Virus record (IMG/VR): IMGVR_UViG_2529292883_000006
DNA length: 40,402 bases
Reading direction: 5' to 3' (one strand)
Source: a virus
Lineage: Duplodnaviria > Heunggongvirae > Uroviricota > Caudoviricetes
The position numbers and the translations under genes are program-made. Each line of letters begins with the position of its first letter. The stretch's first letter is position 1. A model generated the notes under the pieces. That model was given only the letters and a program-made list of their open reading frames with translations, had not been told where the DNA came from and did not search any database. This document shows positions 852-40,402 of the stretch, piece by piece.

Positions 852-879
852 ATTAATTTCTTGACCTTCCCCTTGCTGG
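852..879. repeat. attL core (left copy of 28-bp direct repeat)
   Basis: Exact match to 37819-37846. The flanking sequence diverges immediately (ctgg|gaggatctc here versus ctgg|aaggtttaacc at attR). Confidence 0.7.
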
Positions 880-937: not shown

Positions 938-1975
938 TTAACTACCCTCTAAAATCCCCACTTTGCCTCCAAAGTGTGGACACAATGTGGACATTCCCAC
1001 AAGAGGATTATAATTCACTGCATCCAATAAATAATCAGGTGCAAAATGAGCATATGTCATTGTTTGTGAAATATCTGCGTGACCAAGAATTCTTTGTAAC
1101 GCAATTATATTCCCGCCCTTCATCATAAAATGAGTAGCAAACGTATGACGCAATGCATGAGCTGCCTGACCATCAGGTAAATTAGGTTTTGCCTCTTTCA
1201 TTTTTAAACGAAAAGTTTTGTAACTCACACGAAAAAGTCGACCAGATTCGCGATGCCTTACAATATTTACAACCTCATCTGAAACGGGAACAACTCGCCG
1301 ATCACCATTTTTTGTAAGCGTAAATATAACCCTATTGCCCACAATGTTTTCGGCTTTGAGCTGATAAGCCTCACCCCACCTTGCACCAGTTGCAAGCAAG
1401 AGAACTGCAATCCGGAAATAATCACCAGAGCATAAGGATAATAACCGCTTAACCTCAGACTCAGTAAAGTAAGACATCTCAGTTTTTGGCTCTTTTAAAG
1501 CAGATATTGCCGCCACAGGATTTTCACCATGAAACTCATCGATCTCAGCCATCGCCTTAAACATACCGCTCAGGGCAAAAAGGTCATGGTTAATCGTTGA
1601 AGCCTTTATACCTTGCCCCAATCTATACGCCCGGTATTCGATAAGGCATCGACCATCAATCTGGTAAATCATGGGATCCCCCATATCCTGGCAAATACAG
1701 CTTAACGCACTAAGCCTACGATTAGCGTAGTTCTTATTACGTCCAATGAGCTGCCACCACAAAGCGATAAACTCACTCAGTCGCCGCTTGTCTGCTGGAC
1801 GACTCAGGTAGTCATGGTTTTGATACTTTGCAATGATGCTTCGTTCAAAAGCATGCGCCTCCGCTTTTCTCTCAAACTTCCGCCGGATACGCTTTCCGTC
1901 GCGCCCGCGCGGCCTTACATCCACTTCATAGCGACCATCTTCGAGCTTCTTAACAGACACAAGAAGTCCCTCCAA
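938..1975 (-). CDS. int: Tyrosine site-specific integrase (P2 Int-like)
   Basis: 345 aa. The N-terminus KKLEDGRYEVDVRPRGRDGKRIRRKF and the C-terminal HALRHTFATHF...LQRILGHADISQTMTYAHF (catalytic R, H-x-x-R, Y) follow the phage-integrase pattern. It sits adjacent to attL. Confidence 0.9.
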   Translation of the reverse strand: MEGLLVSVKKLEDGRYEVDVRPRGRDGKRIRRKFERKAEAHAFERSIIAKYQNHDYLSRPADKRRLSEFIALWWQLIGRNKNYANRRLSALSCICQDMGDPMIYQIDGRCLIEYRAYRLGQGIKASTINHDLFALSGMFKAMAEIDEFHGENPVAAISALKEPKTEMSYFTESEVKRLLSLCSGDYFRIAVLLLATGARWGEAYQLKAENIVGNRVIFTLTKNGDRRVVPVSDEVVNIVRHRESGRLFRVSYKTFRLKMKEAKPNLPDGQAAHALRHTFATHFMMKGGNIIALQRILGHADISQTMTYAHFAPDYLLDAVNYNPLVGMSTLCPHFGGKVGILEGS

Positions 1976-7046: not shown

Positions 7047-7362
7047 GTATGCCGTTCTCACAAAAAAACCGCTTGCCATGCCGCAATCAGTCAGGTTACA
7101 TTTCCGCTGCACCTCATAAAACGGGTGCCGGGATTTCCACCCCGCTGACAACTACAGCGCACAACCGCGCCAGCGGTTTTTTTGTGCGTACTGTATCGCC
7201 ACGTCTTTTTCGCACACGAATTATGGTGGGGCGTATGGGGCCGACTTCGGTCGGGCCGGGTTCTGTAGTTGCCGGTTGTGGAAACCCTGTACGTCTCACC
7301 ACCCCGAGTTTTCCACCTCTGGATGGTGAGTTTTCAAAACTTGCAACTACAGAGGCCACACC

Positions 7363-26300: not shown

Positions 26301-26640
26301 TAAACCGCTTTACATTGATTTGCTCATCACCGGTCGCAATCTCACGCTGAACAGCGCCAGTGAGCCGGTGTTATGCAACAACAGGGAAAGTATTGCCCAG
26401 GACTGCCAGCACGCCATCATTGAGAGCGGACTGGCAACGCGCCTGCTGGCTGAAAAAAGCCCGACACTTCGTGCCGACATCATGATGCAGATGACACTGC
26501 TGATTGAAGATGATGAGCGCATCACACCCGGCACGGTCAGTGTGACAGAAGAAACCCCGCTTTCTGGTCGCCTGCTGATTAGCGCCCACACCGAAGATTT
26601 TTTTGAACCCCTGACTTTTACGGTATCTCTTGATGATTAA
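26290..26640 (+). CDS. Putative baseplate wedge protein (gpW/gp25-like)
   Basis: ~116 aa immediately upstream of the baseplate J-like gene (P2 order V-W-J-I-H-G). Start chosen at the in-frame ATG at 26290. Confidence 0.4.
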   Translation: MHTDKPLYIDLLITGRNLTLNSASEPVLCNNRESIAQDCQHAIIESGLATRLLAEKSPTLRADIMMQMTLLIEDDERITPGTVSVTEETPLSGRLLISAHTEDFFEPLTFTVSLDD

Positions 26641-27817
26641 CGGCAAACCCACCGCAGATTACGAGCGCATTCTGGCTGATAACGGCATGCCGGTAACCGA
26701 AGAACAGGCACGCGCTGAATTTGAAGCCATTGTCAAAGACGAAGGGCTTATCACCAACACATCCCGCATGTCGCCGTTCTGGCGACTGATTACAGCCATC
26801 ACCACAAAACCCGTGATGTGGCTGAAAGATGCGCTGGTTAATGTGGTGATGAAAAACCTGTTTCTGGCCGATGCCAGCGGTGTATTCGTTGATGTTTTTG
26901 CCTGGGCGGTAAACCTGCAACGCAAGGCCGCCACGCACGCAGCCGGCGTGATTCGTTTCACCAAAAACGACATTGATCGCGCAGTTACCGTGCCGGCCGG
27001 TACGCAGATTCAGACAGAACGCATTAACGGCGTGATTTATACGCTGAGCGTTGTCAGGGATACCGTTATTCCGGCAGGAACACTCAGCATGAACATCGAT
27101 GTTTCTGCGGAACAGGCCGGAGCCGGCTTTAACCTTGCGCCGGGATATTACCGCATCCTTCCGGTGGCGATTGATGGTATTGCCGGTGTTGAGAACGATG
27201 AAAACTGGCTGACCACACCGGGTGCCAACGAAGAAAGCGATGACGAGTTGCGTGATCGTGTCCGCAATCAGTTTAATCTTGCCGGCGCTTATCACACCGA
27301 TGCTGTTTACCGGGGATTAATTGCCGGCGTTGCCGGCATCAGTGCCGACCGCATCTATTTTCTGCATGACGCACCACGCGGCCCCGGCACAGCAAATGCT
27401 TACATTCTGCTGGATACCGGCATCGCATCCGAACCGTTCGTTGATGCAGTAAACGCATTCATTAACGATGAAGGCCATCACGGACACGGTGATGATCTGC
27501 GCTGTTTTTCCATGCCCGAAACACGCCACACCCTGACCGTGACACTCTGGTTATATGCAACACTGAACCTCAGCGATGAGGAAATTCAGATGTTATTGCG
27601 CAATGTGGAAAATCTGGTTCGCTGTGCATTTCGCGAAAACAGCGATTATGACGTTCAGAAAACATGGCCGTACAGCCGTTTCAGCATGTCCAGACTGGGC
27701 GAAGAGATCCACCAGGTATTTCCACAGGTGGAGTCGGTTAAATTTTCTCTTCCGGATATTCTCAGTGATCTGGCTGTTCCTCGTCTGGAATCCCTTACTG
27801 TGGAGGTGAGCGCGTGA
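26630..27817 (+). CDS. Baseplate J-like protein
   Basis: 395 aa. Size and position between the wedge-like gene and the gpI-like gene. Confidence 0.55.
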   Translation: MMINGKPTADYERILADNGMPVTEEQARAEFEAIVKDEGLITNTSRMSPFWRLITAITTKPVMWLKDALVNVVMKNLFLADASGVFVDVFAWAVNLQRKAATHAAGVIRFTKNDIDRAVTVPAGTQIQTERINGVIYTLSVVRDTVIPAGTLSMNIDVSAEQAGAGFNLAPGYYRILPVAIDGIAGVENDENWLTTPGANEESDDELRDRVRNQFNLAGAYHTDAVYRGLIAGVAGISADRIYFLHDAPRGPGTANAYILLDTGIASEPFVDAVNAFINDEGHHGHGDDLRCFSMPETRHTLTVTLWLYATLNLSDEEIQMLLRNVENLVRCAFRENSDYDVQKTWPYSRFSMSRLGEEIHQVFPQVESVKFSLPDILSDLAVPRLESLTVEVSA

Positions 27818-28449
27818 AACTTCCGGAGATCCCTGAACTCCCGCTCCCCACCTGGATGAATAAAGGCGAGCCGTTAACGCTGGCACATTCATCGCATCGC
27901 TACTGGGAAAAGGTATACAGCTGGCTGACGTGGCCACTACAGCAGATTGATGTCGACACCTGCGCAGAGCCTTTACTTAACCTGCTGGCTTATCAGCGCA
28001 ATATCACCCGATTTAAAGGTGAGCCGGTTTCGTTATTTCGCTTAAGAGTGAAACACGCGTTTATTAACGCTCAGGACTCTGGCGAACGCGCCGGCTTCGA
28101 ACGCATCTTTAAGCGTCTTGGCGTGGGAGACGTTAAAACACTGGAACGGCAACTGCAGCATGACTGGGACGTTATTTTACTGCGCATTAATGACACCCAG
28201 TTAAGTGAAAACAACGCGCTGATGATGCAGCTCGTGCGCCAGTATGGTCGTACCTGCAGGCGCTATTTCTTTCAGGTAATCAATACAACCACTGCCCGGC
28301 TGACAGCCGGCACATTCGATGGCCATTACAGGTATCACACAGCAGAAGCAACGGTGAGAAAGGACACCATCTGGTTAACCGCTTCGCTACAGGCAGGACA
28401 TTACGGCCTGTCCGTGGAACATTACACATTACAGGCAGATGAAGCATGA
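27814..28449 (+). CDS. Putative baseplate/tail protein (gpI-like)
   Basis: 211 aa, coupled between the J-like gene and the tail fibre gene. Confidence 0.45.
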   Translation: MKLPEIPELPLPTWMNKGEPLTLAHSSHRYWEKVYSWLTWPLQQIDVDTCAEPLLNLLAYQRNITRFKGEPVSLFRLRVKHAFINAQDSGERAGFERIFKRLGVGDVKTLERQLQHDWDVILLRINDTQLSENNALMMQLVRQYGRTCRRYFFQVINTTTARLTAGTFDGHYRYHTAEATVRKDTIWLTASLQAGHYGLSVEHYTLQADEA

Positions 28450-30146
28450 GCACGATTATTACTGAACAGTACGAACACTGGTGCGCAAATCAAATCATCA
28501 GTGGAAAACCTGCGCGCCCGGATACATTTGTTTTTGCATATATTCCGGGACAGGATGAATCCGCAGAGATCCCCCGCGATGAGATACTCCCTGATGAATC
28601 CATGATTCAGTATCGTGCGCCGGTCACCCAGTACGGCCTCCTGTCGCCGAACGCGACCGCGTTTTCCATCATTCTGGACACGACAGTCGGCGACTTCGAA
28701 TACAACTGGATCGGTCTGCTGAACGAAGAAAGCGGCGTGCTCTGCATGATTGCACACACACCTCGTCAGCAAAAAATTAAAACAGCGAACGGCGTGCAGG
28801 GAAACAACCTGATCCGCACATTTTCCATGGAGTTTGACGGCGCAGCCGCAGCAATGCATATCGATGTCAGTGCTGATGTCTGGCAGATTGATTTCACTGC
28901 ACGCCTTGCAGGAATGGATGAGGCCCGCCGGCTGCTGGCGTTTGATCACTACGGTGAAGCCGCTTTTCTGGGGGATGGTTTTCAGGTCAGCTATCAGGAT
29001 GGTACCGCTACTGTTGCCGCCGGCGTGGGTTATGTGGGAGGTCTGCGCATCAGTCTGCGCGAACCTTACAGCCTGCCGGCTGCGGTCGGGGATACCCTCT
29101 GGATTGATGCAAGCTGGCAGGGATTTGTTACCGGCGAATGGAATACCGTTTTTACGTTCTGCGCCCGCCAGGAACATGCGTCCTATACAGACGGTAACGG
29201 CTTCCGACACTTTGTCGCGCCACTTGCGAAACTGACATCAGAAGGCTTACAGGATTTACGTCCACAGACGCCCGATGAAGAACAAAGCAATGCACTGGCA
29301 GAGCACGAAAAATCCCGCCGTCATCCGGACGCAACACTGAAGGAGAAAGGCTTTGCGCAGTACAGCAACTCCACCGACAGCGACGCAGAAGACCGCGCCG
29401 CCACATCAAAGGCAGTAAAAGCCGCAATGGATAAGGCAAAAGGCGCTGTTGAGCGTGACGGCGACACCATGACCGGGGAACTGAAAATCCGTAGTGTTAA
29501 TGCACTGAGGATTTTCAACGAAGCTTTTGGCCTGATTTTTCGTCGTTCTGAAGAGTGCCTGCATCTTATTCCCACCCGGGAAAATCAGGGCGAAAACGGC
29601 GATATTGGCCCCCTGCGTCCGTTCACTATTAATTTGCGGACGGGTGAAATATCCATGTCGCATAAAGTGTCTGTTGGTGGCGGTTCTCAGGTGAATGGTG
29701 CGCTGGGTATCGGCGTTCAGAATGCGCTGGGCGGAAACTCAATTGCTTTCGGGGATAACGATACCGGCCTGAAACAGAATGGTGACGGCCTGCTGGATGT
29801 TTATGCCAATGGTCAGCACGTATTCCGTTTTCAGAATGGCGCGTTACAAAGTAACCGGGCAGTGAATGTTTCAGGGCGGGTAACACCGTCAGACTACGGA
29901 AACTTTGATGCCCGTTACCAGACCAAAACAGGCGGCGTGCAGGATGTGCGTTATGGTTCCGAAATGTATTACAACCCGGGAGGTAACCAGATATCCTGGA
30001 CATTTCGCTCACCTTCAGGCCATGGATTATCTGGTATTAATGTGCAGGAAACCGGAAGTAATTCGGCAGATAACATCGGCGGCGTGTATTACCGACCGCT
30101 TCAGAAACTGATTAACGGCACCTGGTATAACGTGGCGAGTGTTTAA
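28446..30146 (+). CDS. Tail fibre protein 1
   Basis: 566 aa with a Gly-rich C-terminal region, followed by a tail-fibre assembly chaperone. Its N-terminal ~150 aa is shared with the 30707-31903 protein. Confidence 0.7.
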   Translation: MSTIITEQYEHWCANQIISGKPARPDTFVFAYIPGQDESAEIPRDEILPDESMIQYRAPVTQYGLLSPNATAFSIILDTTVGDFEYNWIGLLNEESGVLCMIAHTPRQQKIKTANGVQGNNLIRTFSMEFDGAAAAMHIDVSADVWQIDFTARLAGMDEARRLLAFDHYGEAAFLGDGFQVSYQDGTATVAAGVGYVGGLRISLREPYSLPAAVGDTLWIDASWQGFVTGEWNTVFTFCARQEHASYTDGNGFRHFVAPLAKLTSEGLQDLRPQTPDEEQSNALAEHEKSRRHPDATLKEKGFAQYSNSTDSDAEDRAATSKAVKAAMDKAKGAVERDGDTMTGELKIRSVNALRIFNEAFGLIFRRSEECLHLIPTRENQGENGDIGPLRPFTINLRTGEISMSHKVSVGGGSQVNGALGIGVQNALGGNSIAFGDNDTGLKQNGDGLLDVYANGQHVFRFQNGALQSNRAVNVSGRVTPSDYGNFDARYQTKTGGVQDVRYGSEMYYNPGGNQISWTFRSPSGHGLSGINVQETGSNSADNIGGVYYRPLQKLINGTWYNVASV

Positions 30147-30148
30147 CA

Positions 30149-30700
30149 ATGTTGCATTTAAAAAATATTACTGCGGGCAATCCGAAAACAGCAGAACAAT
30201 ATCAGATGACAAAACAATATGATGTCACCTGGCTTTTTTCGGAAGACGACAAAAACTGGTATGAAGAACAGAAGAACTTTGCCAGCGACACAATAAAAAT
30301 GGTTTACACCGGGGACGGGCGCGTGGTGTGGGTCGGTAAGGATGTGACAGGCATTGAACCCCGTAACGCCAGTGTTATTGAAGTTCCGGATATTACCGCT
30401 AATCGCCGTATTACCGCGCCTGGTTACTGGTTTTACCGCGATGGCAATTTTATCTTCGACTACAAACTTAAAGCGGAAGATGAGCGTGATGCACTGTTAA
30501 AACAGGCCAGCATCATGACCAGCGAATGGGAAAAAGACCTGCTGCTGGGATTAATCAGCGACGAAGACAGGGAGAAATTGAAAGCCTGCCGTATTTATAC
30601 AAAAACGTTACGGGAGATGACATTCAGCCAGGTTACAGATAAAGCATCGTATGCCGCGATTGTATGGCCAGAATTACCGCAGAACATTAGCGAGAATTAA
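30149..30700 (+). CDS. Tail fibre assembly chaperone (Tfa/gpG-like)
   Basis: 183 aa. The C-terminal region DERDALLKQASIMTSEWEKDLLLGLISDEDREKLKACRIYTKTLREM...WPELP is characteristic of Tfa chaperones. Confidence 0.7.
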   Translation: MLHLKNITAGNPKTAEQYQMTKQYDVTWLFSEDDKNWYEEQKNFASDTIKMVYTGDGRVVWVGKDVTGIEPRNASVIEVPDITANRRITAPGYWFYRDGNFIFDYKLKAEDERDALLKQASIMTSEWEKDLLLGLISDEDREKLKACRIYTKTLREMTFSQVTDKASYAAIVWPELPQNISEN

Positions 30701-30706
30701 GAAGTA

Positions 30707-31903
30707 ATGAGCGCACTGTTGACGAAAGCATTTGAAAAGTGGGTTGCTGAATGCACAGCCAGTAATTTACCTGCACGCCCTGACACTATTATTTTTGCCC
30801 TGATGGAGCGGGAACCAACGCGCGAAGATAATACCGTTCCGGAAGAAAAAATCACATATGCTGTGAATGAACTGACCTACGGCCAGTTAAGCCAGAACAA
30901 TATTGTGTGTAGCGCGGTCGTTCCTGATGACTGCGCATTCAGCTATGACTGGATTTGCCTCATCCATCAGCCCAGCGGAACACTATGCGGCGTAATAAAA
31001 ACGCCTGTTCGTCAGAAACATGTTGGCGAGTCACTGGTCAGGAATTTCACGATTACTTATCAGGGCGTGGCTCAGGCTGCGCAGATTACCGTTCCTCCAC
31101 AAAGCTGGCAGGTAGATATTTCTCCTGAACTGAAATCAATGCTGAAAATCCCTAACCGCTTGTCAGAAATTGCGGCAGAAGGCGAAGAGGCGCAACAGGA
31201 GTCCCGCGATAATCTGGGACTGAAAAGCGCCGCCACAATGGAGCCACAGAGTGATATTTATGACCGGACGGAAGGCCGACTGGCGATACCGGGGACACTG
31301 GGTTTTGGTGAAATTTTTCATATTAATGACAGGATTAGCTTTGACACCAGAGCCGAATTTGATACCTGGATAAGAGGCGCAAAACCGGGGCGTTATCTGG
31401 TTTATGCAAACCCCGACATAGTGATACCCAAAGTGCTATTCAGTGGAATTCTTGAAATTATCTGGGCTTCAGCTTTAACTACTACAACTAACGGCGTAAA
31501 CAAGATTTATTTTTTTTACAGTGTTAATGGTGCGGTTTATTACGCCCGTGGCACTTCTACTGTCCCGGCATGGGAACTCTGGAGACGAACAGATAAGGAA
31601 TTAATTGATTTTTTGTCCGGTACAGTTTATTCCGACGGGCTGAATGCATCACCGGAGGCTGGCGGTATTGTTCAGGCAGCATTTCGTTATCAGGATAAGC
31701 CCGGAGGATACACCCTGAAGCGAGGTGATGCTTTAAGTGGTTCACTTCTGAAGCCATATATAATTACAGTCGATGAAAGTGGCGAACAGACTCTTCATAT
31801 TAAAGAGGAACATACGTTTCCCGGATATTACTGGAGTCTGACCTCCTATCCGTGGCTGAAAACGAGTGATTATATTCTGGGAATATTTATAAGGTATCGT
31901 TAA
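30707..31903 (+). CDS. Tail fibre protein 2 (paralogous N-terminal domain)
   Basis: 398 aa. The N-terminus (...WVAECTASNLPARPDTIIFAL...) parallels fibre 1 (...WCANQIISGKPARPDTFVFAY...). Confidence 0.6.
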   Translation: MSALLTKAFEKWVAECTASNLPARPDTIIFALMEREPTREDNTVPEEKITYAVNELTYGQLSQNNIVCSAVVPDDCAFSYDWICLIHQPSGTLCGVIKTPVRQKHVGESLVRNFTITYQGVAQAAQITVPPQSWQVDISPELKSMLKIPNRLSEIAAEGEEAQQESRDNLGLKSAATMEPQSDIYDRTEGRLAIPGTLGFGEIFHINDRISFDTRAEFDTWIRGAKPGRYLVYANPDIVIPKVLFSGILEIIWASALTTTTNGVNKIYFFYSVNGAVYYARGTSTVPAWELWRRTDKELIDFLSGTVYSDGLNASPEAGGIVQAAFRYQDKPGGYTLKRGDALSGSLLKPYIITVDESGEQTLHIKEEHTFPGYYWSLTSYPWLKTSDYILGIFIRYR

Positions 31904-32475
31904 TGAACATTACAGATATAAAAAATCCTGTCAGCCTTGAACACGGGGCGATAAATTGCGAAATATTATTTGACGATATGGAGGAATATGTTCCCTATAC
32001 CGCGACACCGACAGACAGCGATAAAACGGGGAAGCAGGTATGGCAGGAGCTACAAAGCGGTAAATGGGGTGAAATCGCCCCGTTCATCGTCACGCCGGAA
32101 CTTATTTCGGCAGCGAAGAATGCCAAAAAGCGGGAAATTGAGGCGTGGCGTACAGAACAGGAAGCGCAGCCGTTCACGTTCGAATGGAACGGTCGCACCT
32201 GGAATGCTGGCCCCGACTCAATGGCTCGCCTTTATCCGGTGGTAATGGCTGCGAAATCCGATACGGCGCGTGACGTGATGACGTGGGGTGACGCCGATAA
32301 TCAGCAGGTGAAGCTGTCGATGTTAAAGCTTGAAGAGCTGGCTACAGCAATGGCACAGGCGCAACTGAACCGCAACGATGAAATTTATCGACGTCAGCGA
32401 CAGATGAAGGACGTGCTGGATGGCCTGAATAATCTTGCCGACATCCGCGCTTTTCAGGCTGGAGAGTCAGAATGA
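31903..32475 (+). CDS. Putative tail fibre chaperone / fibre-associated protein for the second cassette
   Basis: 190 aa, translationally coupled to fibre 2. Assignment by position. Confidence 0.35.
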   Translation: MNITDIKNPVSLEHGAINCEILFDDMEEYVPYTATPTDSDKTGKQVWQELQSGKWGEIAPFIVTPELISAAKNAKKREIEAWRTEQEAQPFTFEWNGRTWNAGPDSMARLYPVVMAAKSDTARDVMTWGDADNQQVKLSMLKLEELATAMAQAQLNRNDEIYRRQRQMKDVLDGLNNLADIRAFQAGESE

Positions 32476-33185
32476 AATGGGAAAAGGCAATTCTGCGCCC
32501 GTCAGCCATGAACATTAAATGTTCAGTGGTTTGCCTTCATCCATGGTCAGAGAATACCGGAAACATCACACCATCGGGGCGTTATCTCAGCCCCGAAAAT
32601 GCTGTATCTGCACTTTTACCCTATCTGAAAGAAAGCACAGAAAAGGACATTGTGGCGCTGTTATTTTGCGCCCCTTCTGCTGGCGAGTTTTTATCACTCG
32701 CCAGGCAATTTTCAGGCGCTTTTCCGTTGCCAGAGGTGGGGCGAATGTCCCGCATGATTTCCAGTCAACTTTCACTGGCCATCAGCAGAATGCAAATCCC
32801 CGCCAGACCGGCAACATCACTTCCGGAACCGATAATGCTGTCGACACAGACCACTCGCAGCATGTCGCTGGCAGCAACCATTGCACAGGCAGCCACTCCT
32901 GCCGCCACATCACCGGAAACATTGTCATCATTACTGCGTCAGTTCATGAATGCGAGAGATAAAGCCTTACAGGAAATCGCTGATCAGCAGGCTGCACTCC
33001 GGCAAAAATTTTGCCCGGTGTGGCGCTTTTGCTACAAGGGAGCCCTTAGCCAGGCCGAAGTGCTGATACAAAAAAACATCCCACACCCCGAGTGGGTTTT
33101 TACAGCTGTGATGCTGTTCGTCGGCGATAATCTCTCATCACTAAGGGAAGCACTACATGACCCAGATGATTGTCCTTGCGCTTGA
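32472..33185 (+). CDS. Hypothetical protein in tail operon
   Basis: 237-aa coupled ORF. No recognisable family. Confidence 0.4.
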   Translation: MKWEKAILRPSAMNIKCSVVCLHPWSENTGNITPSGRYLSPENAVSALLPYLKESTEKDIVALLFCAPSAGEFLSLARQFSGAFPLPEVGRMSRMISSQLSLAISRMQIPARPATSLPEPIMLSTQTTRSMSLAATIAQAATPAATSPETLSSLLRQFMNARDKALQEIADQQAALRQKFCPVWRFCYKGALSQAEVLIQKNIPHPEWVFTAVMLFVGDNLSSLREALHDPDDCPCA

Positions 33186-33732
33186 CGGGGAAGCCATTCT
33201 GCTGCGCAACATCACCGTCAGCGCCACCATGCAACTACCGGACAAAGATATGTCCGGACAGTCAACCAGCACCACGAGCGCCCAGCAGGGAAACAAGGCT
33301 AAAGAGCTGCGCGTGTCGGGGGTTATTGATTTTAACGATGAAGCTATTCTGACCCGTATTTTTCAGCTTGCGGAGGCAACAGAAAGCAACGGTGCTAAAA
33401 AAACATATCGCATTGCTAACGCTACCGCGAAGGCAATCAATATGCGACAGGGGGTATTTTCTGGTGGCATTGATGCCACGGAACAACAGGGAAAAATGCA
33501 CTGGCAGATCACCTTTACTCTCAGGGAAAAATTAAGCGTGCCAGAGAAAGCATCCGCACGCAGCGGTTCGCAGAAAACCATCGCCAGACAGCAGACCCAG
33601 AATGGCAGCGAACAGGCACCAGACAAAGGCATGAATACGCAAAGTTCGTTCTGGAAAAAAATCAATGATGCCGTTGGCTCTGGTCTGGATGCTGTTGGCA
33701 TCGGGAGCGTGAAAGAGGAAGGGAAAACATGA
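33157..33732 (+). CDS. Hypothetical tail-associated protein
   Basis: 191-aa ORF coupled to the downstream hub-like gene. Confidence 0.4.
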   Translation: MTQMIVLALDGEAILLRNITVSATMQLPDKDMSGQSTSTTSAQQGNKAKELRVSGVIDFNDEAILTRIFQLAEATESNGAKKTYRIANATAKAINMRQGVFSGGIDATEQQGKMHWQITFTLREKLSVPEKASARSGSQKTIARQQTQNGSEQAPDKGMNTQSSFWKKINDAVGSGLDAVGIGSVKEEGKT

Positions 33733-35426
33733 AATTAATACAACGCTGCATGATTAATGGCGAACGGGTGGAAATTGCCGATATAAACCTTGTTCTTACC
33801 CTGAATGCTGCCGGTCGTGGCTTCATTTCTGTTAACAATCTGTCACCAGAAAAAAGCTTTGCCGGCGCAATGGTACAAATTGACCTCGGCCGTGACGGTG
33901 AAGCATGGCGCTATTTCTCCGGCTACATTGAGCGCGATCAACCTGCTGAAAATGGCTCACGTCGTCTTTTTATCCGCGAAGCAGCTGCGGTGCTGGATTT
34001 TGATTTCCCTTGCTCCATGCAACACCCGACATTGCGGGGGGTGCTCGATAATCTGGGGCGACAAAGCGGTATCGTTTTTATCACTCCGGATGCAGATTAT
34101 TCCAGCATACCAACTCCCTATATCACCCACAGCGGCAGCGGGACGCAGTTACTTAGCCAGCTGGGGCGTGCATTCAGAATCAGCGATTACGTCTGGCACC
34201 CTATGCCGGACGGTTCTGTATTTGTGGGAAGCGCAGCTGATTCACGATTTGCCAGTATTACGATGCCGGATATTCCGCAACAGTACACACTCGGGCAAAG
34301 CGGCGGAAACAGCATCGACATCATGTTTATGGAAACTGTGCGACCGGGCGTGAACCTACCGGCAGGGCGCATTACCCGTGTAGCCCTCAACAACGAGAAA
34401 ATGACCCTGACATGGGAGCGCCTTACCGCCACGGGTAACCCTGTTTCCAAATCACCATTACGCAGACAAATGGAAACACAGTTCCCGGAACTGGCCAGCG
34501 GTACGCTACATACCCGGCTGGCGCGCGTCATTGCGCCAACGGAGCCCACCACCCTGGGCGATGTGGCCGACAGTTTCCGCCCACGCTACGCCGTCGATGT
34601 GCAGTTGCTTGATGAGAACGGCAACGATAAAAGCGACACGCCCGTTTACCCGGCAGTACCGCTCCCCGTCCCCATGGCTGGCAGTGAGGCGGGATGTTAT
34701 GCCTACCCGCCAGCAGGCACCATCGTGGAAATATCCAACATTGAAGGACGTCCGGACAAACCTGTTATCAGGCAAATCTTACCCGCTGGCCATAACCTGC
34801 CTGATGTAAAGCCCGGCGAACAGCTGCAGCAACAGCGCGCAGAAGTGTTTCAGCGCGTCACGACTGACGGAAGCTGGCACAGAGAAACCGATCAGCAAAT
34901 CAGGGAGCATTCAGCCAGACGAACCATTAACAGCGATCAGGAAGAACGCACAACAACAACCAGAACAACAACAGTACAGGCAAACGACATAACCAGCGTT
35001 CTGGGAACCAGCAAAGTAATGGCAGGGCAAATAGAGCACCTTACTACCGGCCATTACGCGATCGCAGCCAGTGAGCATATCCAGATGGTAGCGCAGGATT
35101 TGCTGACCAAACTTAAAGGAGCAACGTCAACGATTGAACGTGACCTTACTGAAAACGTGGGAGGCCGCAGAACATGCAGGGCGGACGGCGGTCTGGAGTT
35201 TACCGCCCCGACAGTATTTATTGGTCGCGGTGGCTCACGGGAAAAATCCGGACTTAATCTGCTTACGTTACTGATTGATATTCTGGATCTGATTCAATTA
35301 CTGGCCACACACACCGCAAACCATACCCATAGCAATACCGGCTCACCAACAAACAGCAGCGAACTTGCCGCAGATGCCCTGCAAGCCACGAGGCTGCGCG
35401 AAAAATACGGCGATATTATCGCCTGA
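33729..35426 (+). CDS. Putative baseplate hub / late control gpD-like tail protein
   Basis: 565 aa, last gene of the tail operon, followed by a strong intrinsic terminator. Function inferred from position and size. Confidence 0.4.
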   Translation: MKLIQRCMINGERVEIADINLVLTLNAAGRGFISVNNLSPEKSFAGAMVQIDLGRDGEAWRYFSGYIERDQPAENGSRRLFIREAAAVLDFDFPCSMQHPTLRGVLDNLGRQSGIVFITPDADYSSIPTPYITHSGSGTQLLSQLGRAFRISDYVWHPMPDGSVFVGSAADSRFASITMPDIPQQYTLGQSGGNSIDIMFMETVRPGVNLPAGRITRVALNNEKMTLTWERLTATGNPVSKSPLRRQMETQFPELASGTLHTRLARVIAPTEPTTLGDVADSFRPRYAVDVQLLDENGNDKSDTPVYPAVPLPVPMAGSEAGCYAYPPAGTIVEISNIEGRPDKPVIRQILPAGHNLPDVKPGEQLQQQRAEVFQRVTTDGSWHRETDQQIREHSARRTINSDQEERTTTTRTTTVQANDITSVLGTSKVMAGQIEHLTTGHYAIAASEHIQMVAQDLLTKLKGATSTIERDLTENVGGRRTCRADGGLEFTAPTVFIGRGGSREKSGLNLLTLLIDILDLIQLLATHTANHTHSNTGSPTNSSELAADALQATRLREKYGDIIA

Positions 35427-35490: not shown

Positions 35491-36099
35491 CGTATCTGCC
35501 ACCTGATTAATGCGTTCTGCGTGCCATTCTGGCGCTGTATGCACACACTGCGTAAACGGTGTAACGTAAAGCGTGAGGTGACGTAAACCGCGCTACCCCC
35601 TCCAACCCGCGGGTTTTGTCTCGAAACACTTTTTCAGTTTTCTGCCGTGCAAAAATGACCGCCAGCCCGCGCAGCAACTGAGGGAAAAGCGAAGATCTGA
35701 AATTTCACGTTTTGAAATTTTTTGCAGTTTTCAGAGGGATTTTTACGATCTCATGAATGGCAGGAGAAAGAAAACAGGCTGATATTAAAAGAGTTTTTAT
35801 ACTTTACGTGGGACAAGACACGATCGCGAAAGGATCGCGTTAAACAACCCTCAAACAAAGAAGCCCGACGTAGCGCGGCCTGCGCAAAATCAAGAGTCAG
35901 AATTAAACTGAAAAAAGGATCAATACCGCGCCTCGATAGCACATGACGATCTACGCAGCAACAGGACGAAAAAAACCGGCGCGAACGCCGGCGGAAGCAT
36001 GTATCAAATGCGTGACTGAATAATGTCTGCGGTCGGGAATTTTACATCAGAAGGCTGATAAGTCTCAACGGATTGAAACAAGGGAAAAAACCAGGCTAG

Positions 36100-36460
36100 A
36101 ATTCGCGCGGGTGCCTTTCGGCTGATGGCTGGAGGGAATACCTGAAGGCCGGATGTGGAAAGGCCCCGGAAAACATTTTTGTTTAACCGAGGCCCTAACC
36201 ATCTACCCTAGACAAGTGATAGGTTAGCGCCTCCCCGAAAAAGGAGCAAGCGCTATGTCGCAAAAATCGCTTACGGCCATTACGTTCTGCGTGACGGCAA
36301 TCCTCATCATCTGGATGCTACACGGTTCGCTGTGTGAGATACGGATGAGCTTCTGGGGAGCGGAGTTTGCGGCGTTCTTACAGTGTAAACAGTAAGGAAA
36401 CCGCGACGGGGGAGCAATCCCCCGTCAATCGGTTGCTAAGGTAAGGTCGTAAAGGCACCC
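36100..36460. ncRNA. hok/sok-like type I toxin-antitoxin locus (mRNA with 5'/3' fold-back elements; antisense RNA expected on the minus strand)
   Basis: The 5' element gggtgccttt (36108-36117) is exactly complementary to the 3' element aaaggcaccc (36451-36460), as in hok mRNA fold-back inhibition. A GC hairpin lies at 36405-36426. Confidence 0.45.
36255..36395 (+). CDS. hok: Hok/Gef-family membrane toxin (46 aa)
   Basis: Translation MSQKSLTAITFCVTAILIIWMLHGSLCEIRMSFWGAEFAAFLQCKQ has the N-terminal TM helix and SLCEIR...AAF motif of Hok/Gef. AGGAG RBS. Confidence 0.65.
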   Translation: MSQKSLTAITFCVTAILIIWMLHGSLCEIRMSFWGAEFAAFLQCKQ

Positions 36461-36593
36461 TATCTTCTAACATATGAGTGGAAAATCCTACGGGGAAAAA
36501 TGTAAACCTCGTCCTTGCCCACTCATAAGAAGAAATTATCATTTCACTATTCGATTTTCAAAGAATCAATGTAGGTAAAAAGAAGATAGCTAT

Positions 36594-37166
36594 ATGACTA
36601 AATATATTTTTGCTCTTTATTTTATATTATTTGGTAATACGAAACATCTATTCGAATGCTGGAAAGTTGAAGTCATCCGTCGCGATCGATTTTTAATTCA
36701 TCGCCTACTAAGAGAGAAGAGATCACGCTCAAGAAAATACATCTTCTGGTGGAGACTTGCAAATGAAATGTTTATCCATGGCGGGAAATATACAAAAAAA
36801 GCAGCGAAGAAAATCAACCGCAAATTACTCAGTGAATACAGCTGTGATCTTGGTCTAGGGCTGACCGTTGGCAAGGGTCTGACAATTATCCATCACACGG
36901 GCATCGTTGTTACCAGTACGGCAATCATTGGAGAAAATCTGACCATCAGACAAAATACAACCATTGGTCGTAGTCAATCGGATAATGAACACGATAGAAT
37001 AACAATTGGCAATAACGTTGATATTGGCGCCCACTCATTCATTCTGGGCTCTGGTTTTAAAATTGGAGATAATGTCAAGATCGGGGCAATGTCATTTATC
37101 ATGGATGAAATTCCTTCAAACTGTACTTATGTCACCCGGAAAGAATCAAGGATAATATCTAAGTAA
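36594..37166 (+). CDS. Hexapeptide-repeat acetyltransferase (serine O-acetyltransferase / CysE-like left-handed beta-helix)
   Basis: Repeated [LIV]-G-x4 hexapeptides (GLTVGKGLTIIHHTGIVVTSTAIIGENLTI...IGNNVDIGAHSFILGSGFKIGDNVKIGAMSFI). AT-rich relative to the prophage core. Confidence 0.7.
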   Translation: MTKYIFALYFILFGNTKHLFECWKVEVIRRDRFLIHRLLREKRSRSRKYIFWWRLANEMFIHGGKYTKKAAKKINRKLLSEYSCDLGLGLTVGKGLTIIHHTGIVVTSTAIIGENLTIRQNTTIGRSQSDNEHDRITIGNNVDIGAHSFILGSGFKIGDNVKIGAMSFIMDEIPSNCTYVTRKESRIISK

Positions 37167-37287
37167 AATTAAAACTCAACCAATTACCACAAAAAACGCA
37201 GCGTAAAATCATGTGTTTACTTTTTGCCCCCTTGAGGGGGCATTTAAATATCAACAACATTCACAAAAACGAACTAATAAAACGAAA

Positions 37288-37604
37288 TCACTCCCCATTC
37301 TCCCGCTTCCATTGCTGGATCATTTCATCGGTGACATCACTCCCATAACATATCACGTTATATCCTCCACTACGACTATATGCACTGCGCCACCACATCT
37401 ACTACCATTCCTTGCATAATTATAAGGACACGCACAATTACCTGGATACGATTCAATAGATTCTTTAATTATTTCTTTCTTGATCTGAGCGTCAGACTTT
37501 TCAGTTGCCGCATATCCACCAAAAGACACCAAACAAAGGCAGATTACTATTAATAAACCACATCGCATACAGATACTCTCTATCAATAACCAATCACAAA
37601 TCAC
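37288..37604 (-). pseudogene. Small Cys-rich secreted protein with apparent frameshift
   Basis: The 37353-37604 ORF has a signal-peptide-like N-terminus and Cys-rich motif (GNCACPYNYARNGSRCGG). A second frame starting at the GG stays open to 37288 (RSAYSRSGGYNVICYGSDVTDEMIQQWKRENGE). Confidence 0.35.
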
Positions 37605-37818
37605 CTCATAAATTGATATGAGGAGTGCAACGCCTTAAGCAGGAAGACGCAACCTCGATAATATGCAGTGCAATTCAACAAAAAAAGAACTATATCAAAG
37701 AGATAGCACCCTTATCAGTGCTGCAAACACTAGCGTTTGCAGCAACAAAAAACAACAAATCAGTCGAAATGTGGACACTATGTGGACGCTGATTAAATAA
37801 TCCTTTCCTAATCAACAA

Positions 37819-37846
37819 ATTAATTTCTTGACCTTCCCCTTGCTGG
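37819..37846. repeat. attR core (right copy of 28-bp direct repeat)
   Basis: Exact repeat of 852-879. It is followed by the intact copA promoter sequence. Confidence 0.7.
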
Positions 37847-37897: not shown

Positions 37898-40402
37898 ATG
37901 TCACAAACTATCGACCTGACCCTGTACGGCCTGTCCTGCGGTCACTGCGTTAAACGCGTGAAAGAAAGTCTCGAACAGCGCCCGGATGTGGAACAAGCGG
38001 ATGTGTCTATCACTGAAGCGCACGTTACCGGGACTGCCAGTGCAGAACAGCTGATCGAAACTATCAAACAAGCGGGTTATGACGCATCTGTAAGCCACCC
38101 AAAGGCTAAACCGCTGGCGGAGTCATCAATCCCGTCGGAAGCACTGACAGCGGTTTCTGAGGCGCTTCCGGCAGCGACCGCCGATGACGATGACAGCCAG
38201 CAGTTGCTGCTGAGCGGCATGAGCTGCGCCAGCTGTGTCACCCGCGTACAAAATGCGTTGCAAAGCGTACCGGGCGTCACTCAGGCACGGGTAAACCTGG
38301 CGGAGCGTACTGCGCTGGTGATGGGCAGTGCCTCCCCACAAGATTTAGTGCAGGCGGTGGAAAAAGCGGGCTACGGCGCGGAAGCGATTGAAGATGACGC
38401 GAAACGCCGCGAGCGCCAGCAAGAAACCGCCGTCGCTACGATGAAGCGCTTCCGCTGGCAGGCAATTGTTGCACTGGCGGTGGGTATCCCGGTAATGGTC
38501 TGGGGGATGATCGGCGATAACATGATGGTCACCGCTGACAACCGCAGCCTGTGGTTGGTTATCGGCCTGATAACCCTGGCGGTAATGGTTTTCGCCGGCG
38601 GCCATTTTTACCGCAGTGCATGGAAAAGCCTGCTGAACGGTGCGGCGACGATGGATACGCTGGTGGCGCTGGGTACGGGTGTGGCGTGGCTCTATTCGAT
38701 GAGCGTCAACCTGTGGCCGCAGTGGTTCCCGATGGAAGCGCGGCATCTTTACTATGAAGCCAGTGCGATGATTATCGGTCTGATTAATCTCGGTCATATG
38801 CTGGAAGCGCGCGCACGTCAGCGTTCTTCTAAGGCGCTGGAGAAATTACTCGATTTAACCCCACCGACGGCGCGCCTGGTTACTGACGAAGGTGAAAAAA
38901 GCGTGCCTCTGGCAGAAGTGCAGCCAGGTATGTTGCTGCGCCTGACGACCGGCGACCGCGTGCCAGTAGATGGCGAGATTACCCAGGGCGAAGCATGGCT
39001 GGATGAAGCGATGCTGACGGGCGAACCTATCCCGCAGCAAAAAGGCGAAGGCGATAGCGTCCATGCCGGGACAGTGGTACAGGACGGTAGCGTTCTGTTT
39101 CGCGCCAGTGCGGTTGGCAGCCATACCACGCTATCAAGGATTATTCGTATGGTGCGCCAGGCCCAGAGCAGCAAGCCAGAAATCGGTCAGCTGGCGGATA
39201 AAATCTCAGCCGTATTTGTGCCGGTAGTAGTGGTGATTGCGCTTTTCAGTGCGGCAATCTGGTATTTCTTTGGTCCGGCACCGCAGATTGTCTATACCCT
39301 GGTGATTGCCACCACGGTGCTGATTATTGCCTGTCCGTGTGCGCTGGGGCTGGCGACGCCGATGTCGATTATTTCCGGCGTCGGGCGGGCGGCTGAGTTT
39401 GGCGTGCTGGTGCGGGACGCCGACGCGCTACAACGCGCCAGTACACTCGATACCGTCGTGTTCGATAAAACCGGGACGCTGACCGAAGGGAAGCCGCAGG
39501 TTGTCGCAGTGAAAACATTTGCTGATTTTGACGAAGCGCAGGCGCTGCGTCTGGCGGCGGCACTGGAACAAGGTTCCAGCCATCCGCTGGCGCGGGCGAT
39601 CCTCGATAAAGCAAGCGATATGCAGCTGCCGCAGGTCAACGGTTTCCGCACATTGCGCGGGCTGGGCGTGAGCGGTGAAGCTGAAGGTCATGCGTTATTG
39701 CTGGGCAATCAGGCGCTGTTAAATGACCAGCAAGTTGATACTAAAGCGATTGAAGCAGATATTTCAGCTCAGGCATCGCAAGGGGCAACGCCTGTGCTGC
39801 TGGCGGTTGACGGGAAAGCGGTAGCCCTGCTGGCTGTACGCGATCCGTTGCGTAGTGATAGCGTGGCGGCGCTGCAACGTCTGCATAAAGCGGGATATCG
39901 TCTGGTGATGTTGACCGGGGATAACCCAACCACCGCCAATGCGATCGCCAAAGAAGCCGGGATTGATGAGGTGATAGCCGGGGTGCTGCCAGACGGTAAA
40001 GCCGAAGCGATCAAACGTCTGCAAAGTGAAGGACGTCAGGTGGCAATGGTGGGCGACGGCATTAACGACGCGCCAGCGCTGGCCCAGGCGGATGTCGGCA
40101 TTGCAATGGGCGGCGGCAGTGATGTTGCCATTGAAACCGCGGCGATTACCCTGATGCGCCATAGCCTGATGGGCGTTGCGGATGCGCTCGCTATTTCCCG
40201 CGCAACGCTGCGCAACATGAAGCAGAACCTGCTCGGCGCGTTTATCTACAACAGTATCGGTATTCCGGTCGCCGCCGGTATTTTGTGGCCGTTTACTGGA
40301 ACACTGCTTAACCCGGTAGTTGCCGGAGCGGCAATGGCGCTCTCGTCGATTACCGTAGTGAGTAACGCCAACCGGTTGCTGCGGTTTAAACCGAAGGAAT
40401 AA
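37898..40402 (+). CDS. copA: Copper-exporting P1B-type ATPase CopA
   Basis: 834 aa. Two N-terminal GMxCxxC metal-binding motifs (GLSCGHC, GMSCASC), CPC in the TM domain, DKTGT phosphorylation motif, GDGINDAP. Stop at the window end. Confidence 0.95.

What the first reader, a model, noticed from the sequence alone, without database searches (positions are those of the whole stretch)
36100..36460. hok/sok-like type I toxin-antitoxin locus as prophage cargo
A 46-aa Hok/Gef-like toxin ORF is embedded in a transcript-sized unit whose 5' and 3' ends are exactly complementary over 10 nt, the fold-back arrangement of hok mRNAs. It lies in otherwise non-coding DNA between the tail terminator and attR, consistent with a moron that stabilises the prophage or contributes to abortive infection.
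Basis: partly seen in the sequence, partly recalled or inferred. Interest (0 to 1): 0.5.

Follow-up and report, generated by a model that had tools for sequence, protein, structure and literature searches.

The report
Known hok/sok toxin-antitoxin in prophage

Summary
A 46-aa ORF (36255-36395, +) scores above the Pfam Hok/Gef threshold. GGGTGCCTTT (36109-36118) is the exact reverse complement of AAAGGCACCC (36451-36460).

The rest of the hok/sok anatomy is present:
- a sigma-70-like hok promoter that puts +1 at 36109;
- a predicted full-length mRNA closed by a 15-bp 5'/3' helix;
- a 3' stem-loop (36404-36427), after which the shortened RNA is predicted to refold and expose a hairpin loop;
- a minus-strand promoter-like site, TTGCTC-17-TAACCT, identical in 32 of 34 relatives, placed to make a ~63-nt Sok RNA whose 5' tail is complementary to that loop.

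The predicted fold is kept in 34 homologues: 92.9% of cells pair, against about 40% for shifted controls.

The 381-bp cassette recurs in P88-like phages, Stx phages and plasmids. The identical peptide is RefSeq WP_000078916.1 and homologue '72_1621' of a 2025-26 Hok survey, which cloned it; 42 of the 45 tested homologues were toxic, and 72_1621 is not among the three non-toxic ones.

The prophage spans 880-37846, so the cassette is prophage cargo. An acetyltransferase gene lies between it and attR.

One loose end remains: no intact mok frame, although hok is under purifying selection.

The parts
36073..36102 (+). hok promoter-like site: -35 TTGAAA (36073-78), 18-nt spacer, -10 TAGAAT (36097-102); predicts +1 at about 36109
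   Evidence: Consensus scan, 10 of 12 matches. P88-type relatives have a different -35 (TTGCCG) with -10 TAGATT at the same place (alignment).
36109..36460 (+). Predicted full-length hok mRNA (about 352 nt)
   Evidence: Rfam RF01794 matches 36109-36268 over the full model (46.3 bits, E = 3.9e-9). MFE -154 kcal/mol, z = -6.4. The fold is kept in 34 homologues: 92.9% paired, 26 pairs with compensatory change.
36109..36123 (+). 5' element (tac, the 5' partner of fbi): GGGTGCCTTT plus CGGCT
   Evidence: Pairs with 36440-36460 in the full-length fold. Pairs with 36158-36167 in the shortened RNA. The first 7 bp are invariant or G-U in 34 sequences.
36158..36167 (+). ucb-like box GAAAGGCCCC, the alternative partner of the 5' end after 3' trimming
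   Evidence: Fold of 36109-36430. The columns are invariant in alignment A2.
36153..36227 (+). 24-codon upstream ORF in the hok frame, ending 27 nt before the hok ATG. Not a conserved mok equivalent.
   Evidence: ORF list. Its frame and end point differ among relatives.
36189..36233 (+). Sok-target hairpin: GAGGC ... GCCUC base, CUAACCAUC/GAUAGGUUAG stem, 14-nt loop 36204-36217
   Evidence: Forms only in the shortened RNA. Loop P(unpaired) is 0.26 in the full-length RNA and 0.75 in the shortened RNA; the same trend holds in 7 other homologues. The loop sequence is hypervariable among relatives.
36209..36211 (+). TAG in the R1-mok reading frame, where 33 of 63 distinct relatives have TTG; no intact mok here
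   Evidence: Frame analysis.
36243..36246 (+). hok Shine-Dalgarno GGAG, 8 nt before the ATG
   Evidence: Read from the sequence. The same SD (GGAGC) is predicted for the identical peptide in Table S2 of bioRxiv 10.1101/2025.08.07.668861.
36255..36395 (+). hok toxin gene, 46 aa plus stop
   Evidence: Pfam PF01848, 29.9 bits against a threshold of 22. Identical to RefSeq WP_000078916.1 and to tested homologue 72_1621. dN/dS 0-0.35 against relatives.
36404..36427 (+). 3' stem-loop CGACGGGGGAG-CAA-UCCCCCGUCA, the likely protected 3' end of the processed, active mRNA
   Evidence: Folds. Helix 16 is 99% paired, with 4 of its 9 pairs changed on both sides.
36451..36460 (+). fbi element AAAGGCACCC, exact complement of 36109-36118
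   Evidence: Core GGCACCC is conserved; the helix is 91.7% paired in 34 sequences.
36221..36249 (-). Candidate Sok promoter: -35 TTGCTC (36249-44), 17-nt spacer, -10 TAACCT (36226-21)
   Evidence: Read on the minus strand. Identical hexamers and spacing in 32 of 34 relatives. Same layout as my recollection of the R1 sok promoter. Not flagged by the generic consensus scan.
36152..36214 (-). Predicted Sok antisense RNA (about 63 nt): 5' tail UGUCUAGGGUA, then hairpin GGGCCUCGG...CCGGGGCCU, then UUCC
   Evidence: Fold -30.5 kcal/mol, z = -4.0. The 5' tail is complementary to the loop of the target hairpin. The ends are inferred, not measured.
37819..37846 (.). attR core (context): a 28-bp direct repeat of 852-879. 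The prophage spans 880-37846.
   Evidence: Repeat search. The joined flanks match the empty glsA-copA site at 99.7%. The integrase is at 938-1975, minus strand.

Best explanation
It is a hok/sok-family type I toxin-antitoxin cassette (Hok cluster 72) carried as cargo near the right end of a P88-like (Xuanwuvirus, P2-family) prophage in E. coli.

Most likely mechanism, by analogy with plasmid R1:
1. A promoter at 36073-36102 makes a stable mRNA of about 352 nt.
2. This mRNA is locked shut by pairing of its 5' end (36109-36123) with its 3' end (36440-36460). In that form the Sok target is buried and the hok ribosome-binding site is paired.
3. Slow 3' trimming back to the stem-loop at 36404-36427 removes the 3' arm.
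4. The 5' end then pairs with GAAAGGCCCC (36158-36167), and the target hairpin (36189-36233) forms with its loop exposed.
5. While the prophage is present, a short-lived antisense Sok RNA of about 63 nt (36214 to about 36152, minus strand) binds that loop, and the duplex is destroyed or silenced.
6. If Sok synthesis stops, the trimmed mRNA is translated and the 46-aa Hok peptide damages the inner membrane. Sok synthesis could stop through loss of the prophage, host transcription shut-off by an infecting phage, or prophage induction.

Shown here: family membership, the sequence elements, their conservation and the predicted refolding.
Taken from the literature: toxicity of the identical peptide.
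Inferred: transcript ends, Sok activity, processing, and the biological role. How hok is translated without a mok frame is not known.
For: - Pfam HOK_GEF above threshold.
- All residues that the Hok survey reports as conserved are present: C12, T14, L26, C27, E28, E37.
- Rfam sok/hok-leader model: E = 3.9e-9, full length, starting exactly at the predicted +1.
- hok promoter.
- Full-length fold with a 15-bp terminal helix, z = -6.4. The shortened RNA refolds into a tac/ucb-type stem and exposes the target hairpin. The same behaviour is seen in 8 of 8 homologues tested.
- The structure is kept in 34 homologues: 92.9% paired against 38-44% for slid controls, and 26 pairs with compensatory changes against 5-16.
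- The variation in the terminal helix is G-C to G-U, which preserves pairing only in + strand RNA.
- The Sok promoter hexamers and spacing are invariant in 32 of 34 relatives, while the adjacent recognition tail is hypervariable.
- The Sok fold has z = -4.0.
- Purifying selection on hok: 7 synonymous and 0 nonsynonymous differences against L001, 5 and 1 against P88, 5 and 0 against an ETEC plasmid copy.
- The cassette recurs at 80-97% identity in phages, plasmids and 1750 of 5426 E. coli genomes, annotated Hok/Gef.
- The identical peptide was cloned and belongs to the 42 of 45 toxic homologues.
- Prophage boundaries are mapped.
Against: - No intact mok frame: stops in all three frames between the target loop and the hok SD. 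In R1, mok translation up to the hok SD is required for Hok synthesis (PMC9841398).
- The Rfam score is below the gathering threshold (46.3 against 59).
- The Sok promoter matches the sigma-70 consensus at only 3 of 6 positions in each hexamer and was not called by the generic scan.
- Its conservation could also be explained by overlap with the hok SD and the hairpin stem.
- The terminal helix shows no double compensatory change.
- Predicted accessibility of the hok SD stays low in all three modelled states.
- There are no transcript or expression data for this locus.
Confidence: 0.88

Rival explanations
1. The cassette is a silenced relic. Without a mok frame the hok mRNA cannot be translated, so the locus is an inert passenger, like the inactivated hok loci of E. 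coli K-12.
For: - TAG at 36209-11 in the mok frame, and no canonical-start ORF reaching the hok SD.
- In R1, mok start-codon and premature-stop mutations abolish toxicity.
- The hok SD is predicted to be mostly paired.
- The protein database holds many frameshifted, read-through or partial copies of this Hok.
Against: - The hok ORF and every RNA element are intact here.
- mok-less copies found by DNA search differ from the window almost only at synonymous sites: 7/0, 5/1 and 5/0. The chance of 0 in 7 under neutrality is about 6e-5.
- The mok-less state is shared by functional phages P88 and 933W/Sp5.
- The Hok survey itself says Mok cannot be reliably identified across homologues.
Confidence: 0.1
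2. Same molecular system but a different role. Instead of post-segregational killing or abortive infection, it helps the prophage lyse the host on induction, as reported for hokW-sokW of Stx2 phage Sp5.
For: - Takada et al. 2021 (PMC8621323) found that mitomycin C depletes sokW, that HokW appears in a RecA-dependent way, and that phage release halves without the locus.
- The present cassette sits in inducible temperate phages (P88, Stx phages).
- Like hokW, it lies close to the right attachment end.
Against: - hokW belongs to a different Hok cluster, with 28% identity, and has an in-frame mokW.
- No data exist for cluster 72.
- The same cassette also sits on IncI1 and IncF plasmids, where a lysis role makes no sense.
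- No PADLOC defence model matches, so the defence reading gets no support or contradiction from that test.
Confidence: 0.25
3. Chance ORF plus a chance inverted repeat, or terminal inverted repeats of a small mobile DNA element rather than an RNA fold.
For: - A 10-nt long-range inverted repeat occurs in 4.7% of shuffles.
- The conserved block (36085-36465) ends close to both repeat arms.
Against: - The Pfam and Rfam matches.
- Conservation of a whole-transcript fold with compensatory changes.
- G-U wobble substitutions in the terminal helix, which would be mismatches in DNA.
- The block boundaries lie 24 nt outside the left arm and about 5 nt outside the right arm, and I saw no duplicated sequence flanking the block.
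Confidence: 0.01

Closest known systems
Hok cluster 72, homologue 72_1621 (Escalera-Maurer et al., bioRxiv 10.1101/2025.08.07.668861); RefSeq WP_000078916.1 'Hok/Gef family protein'
   Same: The 46-aa peptide is identical. The predicted SD is the same. It belongs to a high-abundance cluster, was cloned under an arabinose promoter, and is among the 42 of 45 toxic homologues. The same prophage and copA context occurs in E. coli 33-6, 58-3 and CP131_Sichuan at 97% DNA identity.
   Different: Nothing at the peptide level. That study analysed only the coding sequence and did not define Sok, mok or mRNA structure for this cluster.
hok/sok (parB) of plasmid R1
   Same: - A Hok/Gef peptide.
- 5'/3' fold-back (fbi/tac) pairing.
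- A ucb-like alternative partner.
- An SD/dcb-type target hairpin.
- A protective 3' stem-loop.
- A cis-antisense RNA of about 64 nt, whose promoter overlaps the hok SD region and whose single-stranded 5' tail meets a target loop.

The R1 sok promoter layout is from my own recollection.
   Different: - 46 aa rather than 52 aa, 30% identity.
- A shorter leader: hok AUG at +147 here, against about +174 in R1 (numbering).
- A 10-nt exact terminal complement here. From my recollection of the R1 sequence, its core is about 7 nt (GGCGCUU/AAGCGCC); this was not checked here.
- No intact mok, whereas R1 needs mok translation.
- Prophage-borne rather than plasmid-borne.
Cassette of phage P88 (gp52, YP_009113095.1) and other Xuanwuvirus phages (P884B11, Chuche, 500465-2, PhiR44_2), annotated 'MokW-like host killing / hok/gef family protein'
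   Same: The same 381-bp cassette at 91.6-94.5% identity. It occupies the same position at the end of the tail module, near the genome end. The mok-less state is the same in P88.
   Different: - The flanks differ: in P88 a gpD-like tail gene precedes the cassette, while here a baseplate gene plus 660 bp does.
- The -35 box differs.
- The Sok recognition tail differs.
- The 3' arm gives 7-9 exact pairs rather than 10.
hokW-mokW-sokW of Stx2 phage Sp5/933W (Takada et al. 2021, PMC8621323)
   Same: A prophage-borne hok/sok near the right attachment end, shown experimentally to be a type I TA.
   Different: - A different locus and cluster: 51 aa, HokD-like, 28% identity.
- It has an annotated in-frame mokW.
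- Sp5 additionally carries an unannotated cluster-72 copy just after lom, about 80% identical to the window's cassette. That copy, not hokW, is the true relative.
HokA of E. coli K-12
   Same: The best NCBIfam match and the closest named homologue: 43% identity, sharing the M-QK N-terminus, W-M, SLCE and AAFL-CK motifs.
   Different: It scores 34 bits against an equivalog cut-off of 89, so this is not HokA.

Membership tests
Hok/Gef toxin family (Pfam PF01848) | Peptide matches the family profile above the curated threshold | tested here: met
   29.9 bits against a gathering score of 22, residues 7-44 on profile positions 5-42.
Hok/Gef toxin family (Pfam PF01848) | Conserved residues of the Hok logo (C16, T18, L30, C31, E32, E41, and C/Y48) and an N-terminal hydrophobic helix in a peptide of about 50 aa | tested here: met
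   C12-x-T14, L26-C27-E28, E37 and C44 are at the corresponding spacings. The hydrophobic stretch is L6-L22. Invariant in alignment A1. The logo is described.
Hok/Gef toxin family (Pfam PF01848) | Peptide is toxic when expressed | not testable with these tools
   From the literature: the identical peptide 72_1621 was cloned (LRP137). Only 19_179, 60_1482 and 69_1540 were non-toxic among the 45 tested.
hok/sok type I TA system (R1 paradigm) | 5' and 3' ends of the toxin mRNA are complementary (tac/fbi fold-back) | tested here: met
   10-nt exact complement. A 15-bp helix in the MFE and centroid folds. 91.7% paired in 34 homologues, with variation of G-C/G-U type only.
hok/sok type I TA system (R1 paradigm) | 3'-shortened mRNA refolds (tac pairs with ucb) and exposes the antisense target | tested here: met
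   By prediction only. The 5' end pairs with 36158-36167, and the target hairpin 36189-36233 forms. Loop accessibility rises in 8 of 8 homologues.
hok/sok type I TA system (R1 paradigm) | Stable 3' stem-loop that ends the processed mRNA | tested here: met
   36404-36427: 99% paired, with 4 of 9 pairs showing changes on both sides.
hok/sok type I TA system (R1 paradigm) | Cis-encoded antisense Sok RNA with its own promoter and terminator, overlapping the toxin leader | tested here: inconclusive
   TTGCTC-17-TAACCT is invariant in 32 of 34 relatives and a terminator-like hairpin is present. However, the promoter is only 3+3 of 12 to consensus, was not called by the scan, and no transcript data exist. 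Rfam RF01794 scores 46.3 bits against a gathering score of 59, E = 3.9e-9.
hok/sok type I TA system (R1 paradigm) | Overlapping mok reading frame, whose translation is coupled to hok | tested here: not met
   Stops at 36209-11, 36217-19 and 36225-27 close all three frames. No ATG, GTG or TTG ORF within the mRNA reaches the hok SD. The same is true of 23 of 63 distinct relatives. I treat mok as a feature of the R1-type architecture, not of the Hok family, which the 2025-26 survey defines by the Hok coding sequence alone.
hok/sok type I TA system (R1 paradigm) | Sok neutralises Hok; post-segregational killing or phage exclusion | not testable with these tools
   Needs genetics; see next steps.
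HokA (NCBIfam NF007290 equivalog) | Score at or above the equivalog cut-off | tested here: not met
   34 bits against 89; 43% identity.
hokW-sokW of Sp5/933W | Orthology to the 51-aa HokW locus with in-frame mokW | tested here: not met
   28% identity. hokW lies at 59815-60089 of AP000422, while the relative of the window's cassette is a separate unannotated locus at about 46866-47220.

The most novel reading that the evidence does not exclude
Cluster-72 hok/sok cassettes, including this one and the copies in phages P88 and 933W/Sp5, work without a mok leader frame. In that case Sok would control hok directly, through refolding of the GAGGC/GCCUC/GGAG region and/or RNase III cleavage, rather than through translational coupling. 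This would make them a natural mok-independent variant of the textbook system. It would also mean that Stx phages carry a second, unstudied hok/sok module.
Probability: 0.3. Interest if true: 0.35.

Novelty: already known. Interest (0 to 1): 0.14.

Why it matters
It matters little beyond correct annotation. Hok genes are already known to be enriched in prophages, and this exact peptide is in RefSeq and in a tested catalogue.

The analysis does add practical value:
- It gives a full map of the non-coding parts that annotation pipelines leave out: promoters, fold-back arms, Sok and the 3' stem-loop.
- It shows that gene-based prophage boundary calls often cut off the 3' arm.
- It shows that the cassette moves as a discrete 381-bp unit between P2-like phages, Stx phages and plasmids.

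The one point that might interest specialists is that a well-conserved, selected Hok cluster lacks a conserved mok frame. That questions how general the R1 coupling model is.

Tried and rejected
- Rfam at gathering thresholds found nothing at the locus. Only the permissive search showed the sok/hok-leader match.
- The generic promoter scan did not call a Sok promoter inside the locus. I located it by eye and by conservation.
With an alignment, the genome scan returned only 7 loci, three under implausible organism names.
- I first assumed this was the published hokW-sokW. I rejected that after reading the primers and the peptide length and locating hokW elsewhere in Sp5.
- I considered the uORF 36153-36227 as a mok substitute. 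I rejected it as a conserved feature because its frame and stop differ among relatives and its start lies inside the tac/ucb stem.
- I tested whether masking the Sok site closes the hok SD. The SD is predicted closed in all states, so this was uninformative.
- A possible divergent small RNA upstream (36032 to 35968, minus strand) has promoter- and terminator-like sites, but its fold is unremarkable (z = -1.5).
- PADLOC defence models match none of the neighbouring genes or Hok itself.

Full report
**Observation**

The region holds a 46-aa ORF at 36255-36395 on the + strand, preceded by GGAG eight bases upstream. GGGTGCCTTT at 36109-36118 is the exact reverse complement of AAAGGCACCC at 36451-36460.

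It is the only exact long-range inverted repeat of 10 nt or more in 36000-36560. A repeat of that kind arises in 4.7% of dinucleotide shuffles, so alone it is weak evidence. Its position is what counts:
- The 5' arm begins 7 nt after a TAGAAT -10 box, which has TTGAAA 18 nt upstream.
- The 3' arm ends at the right edge of the block conserved in relatives.

**Identity of the peptide**

The ORF scores 29.9 bits on Pfam HOK_GEF, whose gathering score is 22. It carries the residues that a recent survey reports as conserved in Hok peptides: C-x-T in the helix, L-C-E, a downstream E, and a C near the end.

The closest named homologue is HokA at 43% identity. Identity to R1 Hok is 30% and to HokW of Sp5 28%. 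The peptide is well below the NCBIfam HokA cut-off.

The same peptide is annotated 'Hok/Gef family protein' (WP_000078916.1) in E. coli genomes that carry the same prophage next to copA.

It is also homologue 72_1621 in Table S2 of Escalera-Maurer et al. (bioRxiv 10.1101/2025.08.07.668861). It was cloned there, and the text states that only three other homologues of the 45 tested were non-toxic.

**The RNA parts**

A permissive Rfam search matches the whole 'sok' model (RF01794) to the + strand from 36109 to 36268. The E-value is 3.9e-9, but the score of 46.3 bits is below the gathering score of 59. The model therefore describes the sense-strand leader here, and it starts exactly at the predicted +1.

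Folding 36109-36462 gives -154 kcal/mol (z = -6.4). A 15-bp helix joins the two ends, and the region around 36204-36217 is paired to the 3' untranslated region.

Removing the last 30 or so bases (36109-36430) changes the fold:
- The 5' end now pairs with GAAAGGCCCC at 36158-36167.
- A hairpin forms at 36189-36233, based on GAGGC/GCCUC, with a 14-nt open loop.

This is the tac/fbi, tac/ucb and SD/dcb logic described for R1. A G+C-rich stem-loop at 36404-36427 is placed to stop 3' trimming, as in R1.

On the minus strand, TTGCTC (36249-44) and TAACCT (36226-21) lie 17 nt apart. They would start an RNA near 36214. The first 11 bases of that RNA are complementary to the open loop. It ends in a strong hairpin followed by UUUCC, for a length of about 63 nt (z = -4.0).

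**Comparative test**

The cassette 36085-36465 recurs widely:
- 91-95% identity in P88-like Xuanwuvirus phages;
- about 80% in Stx phages, just after lom;
- 76-91% on IncI1, IncF and other plasmids;
- 1750 of 5426 complete E. coli genomes.

I aligned 34 distinct full-length copies and counted pairs of the window's predicted fold:
- 92.9% of cells pair, against 38-44% when partners are slid by 1-3 columns.
- 26 pairs show changes on both sides, against 5-16 for the slid controls.
- The 3' stem-loop has 4 of 9 pairs with compensatory change.
- The terminal helix is 91.7% paired. Its first 7 pairs are invariant or G-C to G-U, which keeps pairing only at the RNA level on the + strand.

The fold came from one of the aligned sequences, which favours it somewhat. 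The compensatory counts do not depend on that.

The candidate Sok promoter is identical in 32 of 34 copies, while the bases just downstream (the recognition tail and target loop) are the most variable part of the cassette. That pattern would be expected if co-resident copies must not cross-react, but I did not test this.

In eight homologues, the full-length fold always closes the ends and hides the loop, and the shortened RNA exposes it.

**Selection**

Copies found by DNA search differ from the window mostly at synonymous sites:
- 7 synonymous and 0 nonsynonymous against E. coli 33-6;
- 5 and 1 against phage P88;
- 5 and 0 against an ETEC plasmid;
- ratios of 0.2-0.35 for more distant copies.

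The viral-contig set was chosen by protein identity, so I do not use it for this test.

**Context**

A 28-bp direct repeat (852-879 and 37819-37846) flanks the element. Joining the outer flanks rebuilds the glsA-copA intergenic region at 99.7% identity; at least 80% of the query is matched in 5402 of 5426 E. coli genomes.

A tyrosine integrase sits at 938-1975, glsA at the left edge, and copA at 37898 onward. The early region matches phage P88 at 93%. It carries C4 antisense RNA and isrK.

Genes 26630-35426 are baseplate and tail-fibre genes. So the cassette is prophage cargo, 1.36 kb inside attR.

It is preceded by about 660 bp without a convincing gene. It is followed by a low-GC block (37.8% GC) that holds a polysaccharide-type O-acetyltransferase and a small ORF.

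**The loose end: mok**

In R1, an overlapping frame, mok, must be translated up to the hok ribosome-binding site for Hok to be made. Start-codon and premature-stop mutants lose toxicity (PMC9841398).

Here all three frames are closed between the target loop and the hok SD. TAG at 36209-11 sits where 33 of 63 distinct relatives have TTG in the R1-type frame. Twenty-three distinct relatives share the mok-less state, including P88 and the Stx-phage copies.

The upstream ORF 36153-36227 is not conserved in frame or length, and its start lies inside the tac/ucb stem. Folding does not show the hok SD opening in any state.

Because mok-less copies are under clear purifying selection, I think hok is still expressed in them. 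How is not shown. The 2025-26 survey states that Mok cannot be identified reliably across homologues and did not analyse it.

**Comparison with what is known**

This is not the published hokW-sokW. That locus encodes a 51-aa HokD-like peptide with an in-frame mokW and lies at 59815-60089 of the Sp5 record. Sp5 has a second, unannotated copy related to the window's cassette at about 46866-47220.

Hok genes are already reported as enriched in prophages: 9.3% of Escherichia phages in IMG/VR encode one.

**Verdict**

The locus is an already known, catalogued hok/sok cassette.

Its role in the prophage is inferred only. The candidates are stabilisation, exclusion of other phages, or help with lysis as shown for hokW-sokW.

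Interest is low. The most novel reading not excluded is mok-independent control in this Hok cluster.

Noticed in passing
L096 (AP000422.1, VT2-Sakai/Sp5) 46866-47220; L097 9815-10089: Stx2 phage Sp5 (and 933W) carries two hok loci. One is the annotated and studied hokW/mokW/sokW near attR. The other is an unannotated cluster-72 cassette just after lom, about 80% identical to the window's cassette and partly overlapped by a 'hypothetical protein' call (H0145/L0129).
   Followed up: partly
window 35968-36068, minus strand: A promoter-like site (TTGAGA-18-TAAAAT, 36068 to 36039), divergent from the hok promoter, plus a minus-strand intrinsic terminator (35992 to 35975, followed by T7). Together they could give a small RNA of about 60 nt. 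The fold is unremarkable (z = -1.5) and there is no Rfam match.
   Followed up: partly
window 852-879 and 37819-37846: The 28-bp att core (ATTAATTTCTTGACCTTCCCCTTGCTGG) is the copA promoter region, and the native sequence continues intact at attR. From my own knowledge this stretch is the CueR operator and copA -35 box; that identification was not tested here. The prophage therefore replaces everything upstream of the copA -35 box. Whether this changes copper-responsive copA expression was not examined.
   Followed up: partly
window 36466-37818: A low-GC block (37.8% GC, against about 52% for the prophage) lies between the hok cassette and attR. It holds a 190-aa hexapeptide O-acetyltransferase (36594-37166; EpsC/CysE/WcaB-like, below all equivalog cut-offs; phrog_2154) and an 83-aa minus-strand ORF (37353-37604) that looks secreted or lipoprotein-like. 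It may be a surface-polysaccharide-modifying moron.
   Followed up: partly
window 7109-7306: isrK (63.6 bits) and C4 antisense RNA (79.3 bits) lie side by side on the + strand. From my own knowledge this looks like a P1/P7-type antisense immunity module, here in a P88-like P2-family prophage.
   Followed up: no
window 36109-36268: The Rfam family called 'sok antitoxin' (RF01794) matches the hok sense strand from the mRNA +1 to the hok start codon. At this locus it models the toxin leader, not the antisense RNA strand.
   Followed up: partly
L015, L017, L021 and about 45 other IMG/VR loci: Many predicted prophage contigs end exactly 3 nt after the hok stop codon. Gene-based boundary trimming removes the hok 3' UTR, including the fold-back arm.
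   Followed up: no
L004, L005, L008: Contigs labelled Planococcaceae MAG, Vagococcus sp. and Xanthomonas pisi encode this enterobacterial Hok at 72-98% identity. Contamination of those assemblies by enterobacterial DNA is the likely cause.
   Followed up: no
window 36196-36220 and homologous columns of alignment A2: The Sok 5' tail and target loop is the most variable stretch of an otherwise 86%-identical cassette, with at least eight distinct versions among 34 copies. Single genomes carry up to 9 matching places.
   Followed up: partly
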